Positions 55,975 through 56,824 of a stretch of DNA of 64,000 nt are shown piece after piece (position 1 is the first letter of the stretch; each line of letters begins with the position of its first letter). The position numbers and the translations under genes were made by a program. The stretch is from positions 21,194 through 85,193 of the forward strand of contig CP144810.1 of the NCBI GenBank assembly GCA_036689385.1, in the 5' to 3' direction. The notes under the pieces were generated by a model that saw nothing but the letters and a program-made list of their open reading frames with translations, did not search any database and was not told where the DNA came from. The DNA comes from Candidatus Stammera capleta (GTDB lineage: Bacteria; Pseudomonadota; Gammaproteobacteria; Enterobacterales; Enterobacteriaceae).

Positions 55975-56824
55975 TTATTAATTTTATATAATTTCATTAT
56001 ATTATTTAATAATATTGCAATTGTCATTGGACCTATACCCCCAGGTACTGGAGTTATAAATTTTACTTTTTTTATTACAGATTTTATTTTTATATCTCCT
56101 TTAATTTTTTTTTTTTTATTTATATTTATTCCTATATCTATAATAATAGAATTTTTCTTTATTCATTTATTTTTAATATAATTATATTTTCCTATAGCTG
56201 TAATTAGTAAATCAGCATTTTTTATATATTTTTTAATATTTTTTGTTTTTGTATTTGTTATTGTAACTGTACATTTTTTATTTATTAATTCCATCATTAT
56301 AGGTTTTCCTATTAAATTGGATGAATTAATTATAACTATATTTAATCCTATTAATTTTATATTATATAATTTTAATAATTTTATTGTTGCATATGAAGCA
56401 CAAGGTCTTATATTAGGATATCCTTGAGATAATTTTCCAATATTTTTATAATTTAAGCCATCTACATCTTTATTATATTTTATGCTATTTATTATATTAT
56501 TATAGTTAAATTTTTTAGGTAATGGTAATTGTATTAATATACAATCTATTTTATTATTTTTATTTTTTTTAATAATAAATTTTATTATTTTTTTTTCTTT
56601 TGTATTTTTTTTAAAATTATATATTTTATATTTTATATTTAATATATTAAAATAGTAACATTTTTTTTTAATATATATATTTGATGATTTATAATTACCT
56701 ATATTTATTATTATTATTAAAGGTATTTTTTTTTTTTTTTTATTATTTTTATTATTTTATTTTTTATTTTTTTTAATGTATATTTTAGGTATTTTTTTCC
56801 TGATAATATTTTATGTTTGTACAT
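55971..56824 (-). CDS. folD: bifunctional methylenetetrahydrofolate dehydrogenase/cyclohydrolase FolD, frame interrupted inside an A16 tract (slippage-rescued gene or pseudogene)
   Basis: The N-terminal 33 codons ([28 protein letters not shown] + poly-K) start at the ATG on the complement of 56822-56824. The remainder ([50 protein letters not shown]; stop on the complement of 55971-55973) is in a frame offset by one nt. The switch point is the T16 run 56726-56741. I translated both frames codon by codon. Confidence 0.8.

What the first reader, a model, noticed from the sequence alone, without database searches (positions are those of the whole stretch)
56717..56824. folD reading frame is broken exactly inside an A16 tract
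- **N-terminal frame:** On the reverse strand folD starts at the ATG on the complement of 56822-56824. It reads [28 protein letters not shown] plus poly-K, which contains the conserved FolD K-I-[IL]-x-G-K start. This frame hits TAA (complement of 56717-56719) two codons after a run of 16 T (56726-56741, A16 on the sense strand).
- **Downstream frame:** The other ~250 codons are well conserved: [34 protein letters not shown] and [14 protein letters not shown], with the stop on the complement of 55971-55973. They lie in the frame offset by one nt. That frame is closed upstream by TAA (complement of 56757-56759) and has no in-frame ATG for more than 140 codons.
- **Arithmetic:** The whole span is 854 nt (3n+2). 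One extra A (A17) or two fewer (A14) would restore a 284-aa FolD.
- **Precedent:** Transcriptional slippage on long poly(A) tracts that rescues frameshifted genes has been described in Buchnera and Blochmannia.
- **Context:** This is the only one of the many long coding A/T tracts I checked in this window that is out of frame.
Basis: partly seen in the sequence, partly recalled or inferred. Interest (0 to 1): 0.7.

Follow-up and report, generated by a model that had tools for sequence, protein, structure and literature searches.

The report
folD frameshift inside a poly(A) tract
In this tiny, very AT-rich beetle-symbiont-type genome, the otherwise healthy folate gene folD is one A short inside a run of 16 A's; this is either the known "polymerase slippage rescues a frameshift" situation of insect symbionts or a one-base miscount of a hard-to-sequence tract.

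Summary
On the minus strand, folD (55971-56824) is split by a 1-nt deficit inside an uninterrupted A16 tract (56726-56741). A17 gives a 284-aa protein that aligns without gaps to E. coli FolD and to about 35 intact orthologues.

The genome reads TGA as Trp. Its nearest relatives are the 245-325 kb Candidatus Stammera capleta-type genomes. Those relatives have an interrupted, 1-nt-longer tract at this site.

The gene shows no other sign of decay:
- There is no second lesion.
- It has no excess of lineage-specific substitutions relative to its sisters or to the neighbouring lon and cysS.
- Its conserved residues are kept.
- glyA, fmt and def are intact.
- The other 111 coding A/T tracts of 9 nt or more are all in frame.

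The data therefore point to a functional gene. Sequence alone cannot separate a real A16 rescued at the RNA or ribosome level (about 0.4) from a consensus miscall or A16/A17 mixture in a short-read assembly (about 0.35). A very recent pseudogene (about 0.15) also remains possible.

This is a new member of a known kind (Buchnera, Blochmannia, Providencia symbionts). Interest is modest.

The parts
55971..56824 (-). folD (bifunctional methylene-THF dehydrogenase / methenyl-THF cyclohydrolase). The whole gene as deposited is 854 nt and frameshifted.
   Evidence: With A17 it gives a 284-aa protein carrying PF00763 and PF02882. That protein aligns gap-free to E. coli FolD (5O22/1B0A, residues 4-278 to 4-278, E=8e-63).
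56742..56824 (-). 5' segment upstream of the tract (first 27 codons plus AT of codon 28), encoding the start of the protein and helix alpha1.
   Evidence: The sequence [28 protein letters not shown] aligns with [28 protein letters not shown] of the nearest relative. Helix 10-29 has high confidence in the model of P0001.
56726..56741 (-). Uninterrupted A16 tract (T16 on the + strand) where the frame changes. It encodes the Lys run in the loop between helix alpha1 and strand beta1.
   Evidence: Sister genomes have ATAAT-A9-T-A4-G-A4-CCT (19 nt between anchors) against 18 nt here.
56717..56719 (-). Premature TAA that ends the 5' frame two codons after the tract.
56757..56759 (-). TAA that closes the 3' frame upstream of the tract, so the 3' frame cannot be entered by normal initiation.
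   Evidence: The next ATG/GTG/TTG in that frame is at 56297.
55971..56726 (-). 3' segment: 251 sense codons plus the stop, carrying the rest of the catalytic domain and the NAD(P)-binding domain.
   Evidence: All clade-invariant residues are kept. It deviates at 3 of 105 columns that are at least 90% conserved (clade median 3).
56865..56940 (+). tRNA-Arg(TCT) between lon and folD, on the opposite strand. It serves as a conserved synteny marker.
49003..50223 (-). glyA (serine hydroxymethyltransferase), intact. It supplies the FolD substrate.
   Evidence: PF00464, 2e-144.
16900..18270 (-). def and fmt (peptide deformylase and methionyl-tRNA formyltransferase), intact. Fmt consumes the FolD product 10-formyl-THF.
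   Evidence: PF00551, PF02911, PF01327.
2631..5165 (+). mutS, intact. It is relevant to tract stability at the DNA level. mutL at 12195-13853 is present but very diverged.

Best explanation
folD here is a functional, selectively maintained gene. AT mutational pressure converted the Lys-rich loop between helix alpha1 and strand beta1 into a pure poly(A) run, and that run then lost one A (17 to 16) by replication slippage.

The proposed rescue works as follows. RNA polymerase transcribing the T16 template slips backwards and adds one A in a fraction of transcripts. This is the dominant error type in A/T runs, and its frequency rises steeply with run length. Those A17 mRNAs encode the normal 284-aa enzyme. 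Unprogrammed -1 ribosome slippage on A-AAA-AAA could add to the yield. The cell therefore makes a reduced amount of full-length FolD, which feeds 10-formyl-THF to Fmt.

Shown: the lesion, its position, the intactness and conservation of everything else, and the pathway context. Inferred: that the tract length is real, that slippage occurs, and that protein is made.
For: - The lesion is a single 1-nt deficit lying exactly in A16. A17 restores a protein collinear, with no indel, with E. coli FolD and with 35 clade orthologues.
- Rates are not accelerated. Window-specific substitutions number 17-23, against 25-30 in the sister lineages (Tajima tests, not significant). The ratio of window-sister to sister-sister divergence is 1.47 for FolD, against 1.39 for Lon and 1.44 for CysS.
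- Pairwise dN/dS is 0.27-0.30, inside the 0.19-0.49 range of intact pairs.
- Conserved columns are kept at the clade median.
- The 251 downstream codons have 109 one-step routes to a stop codon yet contain none. Six other A tracts of 8 nt or more, including an A13, are in frame.
- glyA, fmt and def are intact, and all relatives recovered keep folD.
- Insertions of one A/U dominate transcription errors in A/T runs, and their frequency rises exponentially with run length. Enterobacterial RNAP slips on runs of 9 or more (PMC5574713, PMC6260861, PMC5009743).
- The same class of lesion is treated as functional in Blochmannia, Buchnera and Providencia symbionts.
- A relative (CP043987.1) carries an in-frame A16 at the same site, identical in two assemblies. 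Tracts of this length are therefore tolerated in folD, and A16 proved callable from short reads in that one case.
Against: - There are no reads, RNA or protein data.
- The frameshift is not shared with any available relative, so there is no evidence that it has persisted.
- A recent lesion would also show no decay.
- Traverse and Ochman found no transcript-level frame restoration in Buchnera pseudogenes.
- There is no stimulatory RNA structure downstream of the tract (z = -0.16). By inspection of the sequence read there is no Shine-Dalgarno-like element upstream of it. Any ribosomal contribution would therefore be unprogrammed.
- Assemblies of this clade are short-read, PCR-library based.
Confidence: 0.42

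Rival explanations
1. The consensus is wrong or the tract length is mixed. Under this reading the true (or majority, or co-existing) genomic tract is A17 and the gene is ordinary. The deposited A16 would come from PCR stutter or sequencing error, or from an assembler choosing one path in a length-polymorphic homopolymer from a pooled, polyploid symbiont population.
For: - The tract is the longest homopolymer inside a conserved coding region of the window, which is where miscalls concentrate.
- The error direction (-1) is the usual stutter direction (my own knowledge).
- Published genomes of this clade come from NEBNext PCR libraries, 2x150 Illumina reads, MEGAHIT assembly and 1-3 pooled beetles.
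- Sister genome CP043980.1 has N's inside long poly(A) tracts at the 5' end of lon.
- The gene looks perfectly healthy otherwise.
Against: - All 111 other coding tracts of 9 nt or more are in frame, including an A15, two A14 and seven A13.
- An A16 at the same site in a relative was assembled identically by two pipelines.
- The window contains no ambiguous bases.
- I cannot show that the window comes from the dataset described.
Confidence: 0.35
2. Recent pseudogene. The A16 is real and not usefully rescued. folD has just been inactivated in this lineage and has not yet accumulated further damage.
For: - Homopolymer indels are the classic first step of gene loss in AT-rich symbionts.
- The lesion is specific to this lineage.
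- The absence of decay only bounds neutral divergence since inactivation to about 0.08 substitutions per site or less (95%), which is compatible with a young lesion.
Against: - All 35 clade relatives recovered keep an intact folD.
- fmt, def and glyA remain intact. No alternative source of 10-formyl-THF was seen in the window, which covers only about a quarter of a genome of this size.
- A 16-nt run is expected to yield frame-corrected transcripts regardless, so complete loss of function is unlikely.
Confidence: 0.15
3. An N-terminally truncated FolD is made from the 3' frame by initiation at a non-canonical codon (for example ATA at 56726) or at the internal ATG at 56297, and the 5' ORF is irrelevant.
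For: The 3' frame has several ATA/ATT codons right after the tract. Reduced genomes occasionally use unusual start codons (my own knowledge).
Against: - There is no ATG/GTG/TTG for 153 codons in that frame.
- Such a product would lack the whole of helix alpha1 (residues 10-29, pLDDT 93-97 in the model of the nearest relative).
- Initiation at 56297 would leave only 108 aa of the NAD(P)-binding domain.
- The 5' ORF still starts with the conserved [13 protein letters not shown] sequence seen in relatives.
Confidence: 0.04
4. Programmed -1 ribosomal frameshifting or a phase-variation switch. Under this reading the tract is an evolved regulatory device that sets or toggles FolD level.
For: A-AAA-AAA is a classical -1 slippery heptamer, and the needed shift is -1 (read from the sequence). 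The homopolymer lies near the 5' end of the gene, as in contingency loci.
Against: - There is no downstream structure (z = -0.16), and no Shine-Dalgarno-like stimulator is visible in the sequence upstream of the tract (by inspection).
- The arrangement is not conserved in any relative.
- folD is a housekeeping enzyme, not a surface or restriction gene.
- mutS is intact.
Confidence: 0.04

Closest known systems
Poly(A)-tract frameshifted genes of Buchnera aphidicola and Blochmannia, attributed to transcriptional slippage (Tamas et al. 2008; Wernegreen et al. 2010; Williams & Wernegreen 2010, PMC3017870; PMC4389277)
   Same: An obligate, AT-rich insect symbiont carries a single indel inside a coding poly(A) run. 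The gene is otherwise intact and its rate is not accelerated. This is the same argument that Williams and Wernegreen used.
   Different: - The tract is longer: 16 nt, against 'as long as 12 bp' in Blochmannia.
- The host clade reads TGA as Trp.
- The frameshift is not shared with any available relative.
- No transcript or protein evidence exists here.
Poly(A/T) frameshifted CDSs in Candidatus Providencia siddallii leech symbionts (PMC10540940)
   Same: Small gammaproteobacterial symbiont genomes with a few CDSs frameshifted in poly(A/T) tracts, interpreted by analogy with Tamas et al..
   Different: In Providencia some of those tracts predate lineage diversification. Here the lesion is lineage-specific.
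Programmed transcriptional slippage (Thermus thermophilus dnaX, Shigella mxiE and spa13, Citrobacter tssM)
   Same: RNAP realignment on runs of 9 or more A/T produces mRNAs with extra bases that change the frame.
   Different: Those sites are conserved and used to make defined product ratios. Nothing here indicates an evolved device.
E. coli dnaX-type -1 programmed ribosomal frameshifting, and ribosome sliding on poly(A)
   Same: An A-AAA-AAA/G slippery sequence decoded by tRNA-Lys, with a -1 shift needed. Sliding on A runs has been reported.
   Different: There is no downstream stem-loop, and no upstream Shine-Dalgarno-like stimulator is visible in the sequence (by inspection).
Homopolymer indels as the first step of pseudogenisation in reduced genomes
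   Same: The mutational origin is the same: replication slippage in an AT-driven homopolymer.
   Different: There is no second lesion, and the pathway partners and all orthologues are retained.

Membership tests
FolD (bifunctional 5,10-methylene-THF dehydrogenase / 5,10-methenyl-THF cyclohydrolase) | N-terminal catalytic domain (PF00763) plus C-terminal NAD(P)-binding domain (PF02882), both above the gathering score | tested here: met
The PF00763 match (residues 7-122) spans the frameshift.
FolD (bifunctional 5,10-methylene-THF dehydrogenase / 5,10-methenyl-THF cyclohydrolase) | Collinearity with experimentally solved FolD and retention of family-invariant residues | tested here: met
   residues 4-278 align to 4-278 of E. 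coli FolD (5O22) without gaps, E=8e-63; all 29 invariant columns are kept, and the window deviates at 3 of 105 columns that are at least 90% conserved (clade median 3).
FolD (bifunctional 5,10-methylene-THF dehydrogenase / 5,10-methenyl-THF cyclohydrolase) | A single uninterrupted reading frame in the DNA | tested here: not met
   the span is 854 nt (3n+2) and the frame changes in A16 at 56726-56741.
Symbiont poly(A) frameshifts rescued by transcriptional slippage (Tamas et al. 2008 class) | The indel lies inside an uninterrupted A/T run of about 9 nt or more within the coding region | tested here: met
   A16, 1 nt shorter than the homologous stretch of sister genomes.
Symbiont poly(A) frameshifts rescued by transcriptional slippage (Tamas et al. 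2008 class) | The gene is otherwise intact and shows no accelerated or neutral evolution | tested here: met
   Caveat: a very recent lesion would pass the same tests, and synonymous sites are compositionally saturated.
Symbiont poly(A) frameshifts rescued by transcriptional slippage (Tamas et al. 2008 class) | The frameshift is conserved among populations or species | tested here: not met
   all 35 clade relatives recovered are in frame. The nearest is 77% identical. No closer genome is available.
Symbiont poly(A) frameshifts rescued by transcriptional slippage (Tamas et al. 2008 class) | The genomic tract length is verified independently of the assembly | not testable with these tools
   No reads are available, and the window's genome is absent from the searchable collections.
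Symbiont poly(A) frameshifts rescued by transcriptional slippage (Tamas et al. 2008 class) | A mixed mRNA pool containing frame-restored transcripts, and full-length protein | not testable with these tools
   This needs cDNA amplicon sequencing or RNA-seq, plus proteomics.
Programmed -1 ribosomal frameshift site | A slippery heptamer X XXY YYZ in the 0 frame | tested here: met
   A AAA AAA occurs repeatedly in the 0 frame, and the required shift is -1.
Programmed -1 ribosomal frameshift site | A downstream stimulatory structure or an upstream Shine-Dalgarno-like element, and conservation of the arrangement | tested here: not met
   the 96 nt downstream fold at -7.2 kcal/mol, z = -0.16. The upstream sequence is A/T only (by inspection). 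Relatives are in frame.
Phase-variable contingency locus | A simple-sequence repeat switching a surface, restriction or virulence gene, typically with on and off variants in populations | tested here: inconclusive
   The repeat is present, but the gene is a housekeeping enzyme. Population variants cannot be examined.

The most novel reading that the evidence does not exclude
The tract is truly A16 and fixed. In that case a one-carbon enzyme retained by every relative recovered here is made, in this TGA=Trp beetle-symbiont lineage, only through RNA-level insertion of one A (or ribosome slippage). The 16-nt coding run would be longer than the 9-12-nt tracts implicated in Buchnera and Blochmannia. 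Another lineage has independently evolved an in-frame A16 in the same surface loop. Toggling between 16 and 17 A's would then be a recurrent, tolerated state, because at this length the mRNA pool is heterogeneous whatever the DNA says.
Probability: 0.38. Interest if true: 0.45.

Novelty: new member of a known kind. Interest (0 to 1): 0.3.

Why it matters
If the tract length is real, this extends the "polymerase infidelity rescues frameshifted genes" phenomenon to a further symbiont lineage, the TGA=Trp Stammera-type symbionts, and to a much longer tract. It also gives a clean test case, because a relative carries a homologous in-frame A16 that can serve as a natural control. The test would ask how much genomic reading frame still matters once a homopolymer is long enough for the transcript pool to be heterogeneous.

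There is also a practical point. Annotation pipelines will call this gene a pseudogene or split it. That would wrongly remove the only visible route to 10-formyl-THF from metabolic reconstructions of the symbiont.

If the tract is a miscount, the finding is an assembly-quality flag for tracts of 16 nt or more in short-read symbiont genomes.

Tried and rejected
- **Exact-protein look-ups.** Look-ups of the window's rpsJ and dnaJ found nothing, so the source genome and its reads are not in the collection.
- **Metagenome scan.** An exact 48-nt flank was searched in JGI metagenomes with no hit.
- **Possible second broken gene at 53952-54588.** The 637-nt gap turned out to be rnpB plus a short spacer. 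The 112-118-aa low-complexity ORF that relatives have between cysS and rnpB is simply absent here; the spacer is about 220 nt shorter.
- **dN/dS.** Synonymous differences plateau at about 0.3-0.45 regardless of divergence, which is compositional saturation. The ratios are only comparative.
- **Promoter and terminator scan.** The scan around folD gave counts no different from shuffled sequence.
- **Papers not held.** Tamas et al. 2008 and Wernegreen et al. 2010 are not in the library. I cite them through papers that describe them.
- **Organism identity.** A search for accession CP043980 in papers found nothing. The Stammera assignment rests on three things: TGA=Trp, the 245-325 kb single-contig genomes of the relatives, and papers that list Stammera as the one gammaproteobacterial insect-symbiont lineage with this code.

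Full report
**1. What is in the sequence**

- An ATG at 56824-56822 opens [28 protein letters not shown], followed by five Lys codons, then Tyr-Leu and TAA (56719-56717).
- The run of A's is 16 long (56741-56726). The last A of the preceding ATA codon is its first base.
- One nucleotide out of phase, a second frame is open for 251 codons from ATA (56726) to TAA (55973-55971). It carries [34 protein letters not shown] and [14 protein letters not shown].
- That second frame is closed upstream by TAA at 56759-56757. Its first ATG/GTG/TTG is 153 codons in, at 56297.
- The span is 854 nt (3n+2). A17 yields 284 aa and A14 yields 283 aa.
- The repaired protein matches both FolD Pfam domains. The catalytic-domain match runs straight across the junction.

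**2. Genome context**

- The window is 17.8% G+C and reads TGA as Trp. TGA outnumbers TGG 64 to 5 in 18 long genes. The single in-frame TGA of folD aligns with the Trp of E. coli FolD in 'GDWIKEG'.
- The window carries an rRNA operon, the ribosomal-protein cluster and these genes: mutS, mutL, fmt, def, glyA, dnaK, dnaJ, hisS, der, rnpB, cysS, folD, tRNA-Arg, lon, clpX, clpP, nusB, infA and trxB.
- The best FolD relatives are about 35 intact 284-294-aa proteins. Each sits on a single NCBI contig of 245-325 kb.
- The nearest two relatives are CP145599.1 and CP043980.1, at 77% protein identity. They share the clpX-lon-tRNA-folD-cysS-rnpB-der order.
- The papers read list Candidatus Stammera capleta, the symbiont of cassidine leaf beetles, as the one gammaproteobacterial insect-symbiont lineage with this code (about 15% G+C). 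I therefore place the window in that clade.
- The window's own genome is not in the searchable collections.

**3. What the relatives show at the tract**

- In the DNA alignment the two nearest genomes read ATAAT-A9-T-A4-G-A4-CCT. The window reads ATAAT-A15-TA-CCT, which makes A16 counting the A of ATA. That is 19 nt against 18 nt between the same anchors.
- The window has therefore lost the interrupting T and G and is one base short.
- The A17 repair aligns with all 38 sequences, and with E. coli FolD residues 4-278, without any gap. A17 rather than A14 is thus the ancestral-length state.
- A structure model of the nearest relative (mean pLDDT 91) places residues 10-29 in helix alpha1 and residues 36-42 in the first strand. 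The Lys run therefore sits at the end of alpha1 and in the connecting surface loop. A loop like this can tolerate drifting to poly-Lys.
- Another lineage, CP043987.1, has independently evolved an uninterrupted in-frame A16 at the same site. That gene sequence is identical in an independent Logan assembly of run SRR10017622.

**4. Is the gene decaying?**

No sign of decay was found.
- **Relative-rate tests.** With two outgroups, FolD has 17-23 window-specific substitutions against 25-30 in the sisters. Lon has 36-48 against 54-71, and CysS has 37-47 against 33-43.
- **Divergence ratio.** The ratio of window-sister to sister-sister protein divergence is 1.47 for FolD. It is 1.39 for Lon and 1.44 for CysS (from the identities).
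- **dN/dS.** Pairwise Nei-Gojobori dN/dS is 0.27-0.30 for window pairs, within the 0.19-0.49 of intact pairs. Synonymous sites are compositionally saturated, so these values are only comparative.
- **Conserved columns.** The window deviates at 3 of 105 columns that are at least 90% conserved. The clade median is 3 and the range is 0-10.
- **No second lesion.** The 251 downstream codons offer 109 single-step routes to a stop codon, yet none has occurred. This bounds any neutral period to about 0.08 substitutions per site or less (95%). Six other A tracts of 8 nt or more, including an A13, remain in frame.
- **Pathway context.** SHMT (glyA), Fmt and Def are intact. They cover the steps before and after FolD in formyl-Met initiation. 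That FolD is their link follows from textbook one-carbon metabolism, not from a test here.

**5. Is this tract special within the window?**

- There are 112 coding A/T tracts of 9 nt or more (67 of 10 or more, 12 of 13 or more). Only this one breaks a frame.
- It is also the longest tract inside a conserved coding region. The only longer one is an A20 in the last codons of a truncated tsaB-like ORF.
- The 637-nt 'gap' next to cysS is rnpB, not a second casualty.

**6. Mechanism**

Restoring the frame needs one extra A in the mRNA, or equivalently a -1 ribosomal shift.
- Published transcriptome-wide data show that single-base insertions dominate transcription errors in A/T runs. They arise by backward slippage and increase exponentially with run length (PMC5574713).
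- Enterobacterial RNAP slips on runs of 9 or more, giving up to 6 extra nucleotides (PMC5009743 and PMC6260861).
- Frameshifts of exactly this kind are counted as functional in Blochmannia, where tracts reach about 12 nt, and in Providencia symbionts.
- At 16 nt the mRNA pool should be heterogeneous whatever the DNA length, and the in-frame A16 of CP043987.1 would suffer the same. This would reduce the fitness gap between A16 and A17.
- For a ribosomal contribution, the A-AAA-AAA heptamer is present. There is no downstream structure (z = -0.16), and no upstream Shine-Dalgarno-like element is visible in the sequence (by inspection). Any such contribution would be unprogrammed sliding.

**7. Why I cannot go further**

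The same data fit a one-base miscount.
- The clade's published genomes come from NEBNext PCR libraries, 2x150 Illumina reads, MEGAHIT assembly and 1-3 pooled beetles (bioRxiv 10.1101/2023.12.12.571295).
- Sister genome CP043980.1 contains N's embedded in long poly(A) runs at the 5' end of lon, and its lon call is truncated there.
- Against an artefact: all other long tracts in the window are in frame, and an A16 was assembled reproducibly elsewhere.
- My split is as follows:

| Reading | Probability |
|---|---|
| Real A16 in a gene kept functional by slippage | 0.42 |
| Consensus error or A16/A17 mixture | 0.35 |
| Very recent pseudogene | 0.15 |
| Truncated product from an internal start | 0.04 |
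| Programmed device (PRF or phase variation) | 0.04 |

**8. Comparison and novelty**

- In how it would work, this is the Tamas-Wernegreen class of symbiont poly(A) frameshifts.
- For membership in that class, it meets the tract and intactness criteria. It fails conservation of the frameshift among relatives, at the depth available. The defining RNA and protein evidence cannot be tested here.
- I found no paper linking Stammera with such frameshifts.
- It is therefore at most a new member of a known kind. It is notable for tract length and for the natural in-frame A16 control in a related lineage. Interest is modest until reads settle the tract length.

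Noticed in passing
window 50224-50586 (and 50587-51027): The 363-nt spacer between a tsaB-like ORF and glyA is a 'forest' of very long T tracts on the + strand (T12 to T25, at least eight of 10 nt or more). The tsaB-like ORF is only 146 aa with a weak Pfam TsaD match and ends in a poly-Lys tail encoded by an A20. This looks like the C-terminal half of a gene eroded into poly(A).
   Followed up: partly
L003:471-565 (CP043980.1): A sister genome has N's embedded in long poly(A) tracts at the 5' end of lon. Its lon gene call starts after the conserved IPILPL motif, which is visible upstream in the same frame. This may be an assembly problem or a second poly(A) casualty.
   Followed up: partly
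L005:5085-5100 and L006 (CP043987.1; SRR10017622): An independent lineage has an uninterrupted, in-frame A16 at the homologous folD site, identical in two assemblies. Other in-frame tracts of 17 nt (L003 lon, 2227-2243) and 18 nt (L002 clpX, 4-21) exist in relatives.
   Followed up: yes
whole window (e.g. 43050-45818 ileS with 19 TGA): TGA is read as Trp. There are 64 in-frame TGA against 5 TGG in 18 long genes, and all 18 of those genes stop with TAA.
   Followed up: yes
window 53952-54360 and 54361-54588; L002:5331-5672, L003:5347-5703, L004:7344-7682: rnpB lies between der and cysS. Relatives have a called 112-118-aa Ile/Lys/Asn-rich ORF with no Pfam match between cysS and rnpB. The window's spacer is about 220 nt shorter and has no such ORF.
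   Followed up: partly
window 12195-13853: mutL is present but extremely diverged: its DNA_mis_repair domain scores 20.2 bits, below the cut-off of 26. mutS keeps all five domains. Weakened mismatch repair would raise homopolymer instability.
   Followed up: no
window 55971-55974: The convergent genes cysS (+) and folD (-) overlap by 4 nt at their stop codons.
   Followed up: no
window 5533-5559 and 31247-31340: The spacers are too short for priB (between rpsF and rpsR) and for rpmD (between rpsE and rplO), so both genes seem to be absent from their usual operon positions.
   Followed up: no
window 56865-56940: tRNA-Arg(TCT) lies on the strand opposite to lon and folD, 40 nt upstream of the folD start codon. 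The folD promoter must therefore overlap the tRNA gene antisense, or folD is read through from lon.
   Followed up: no
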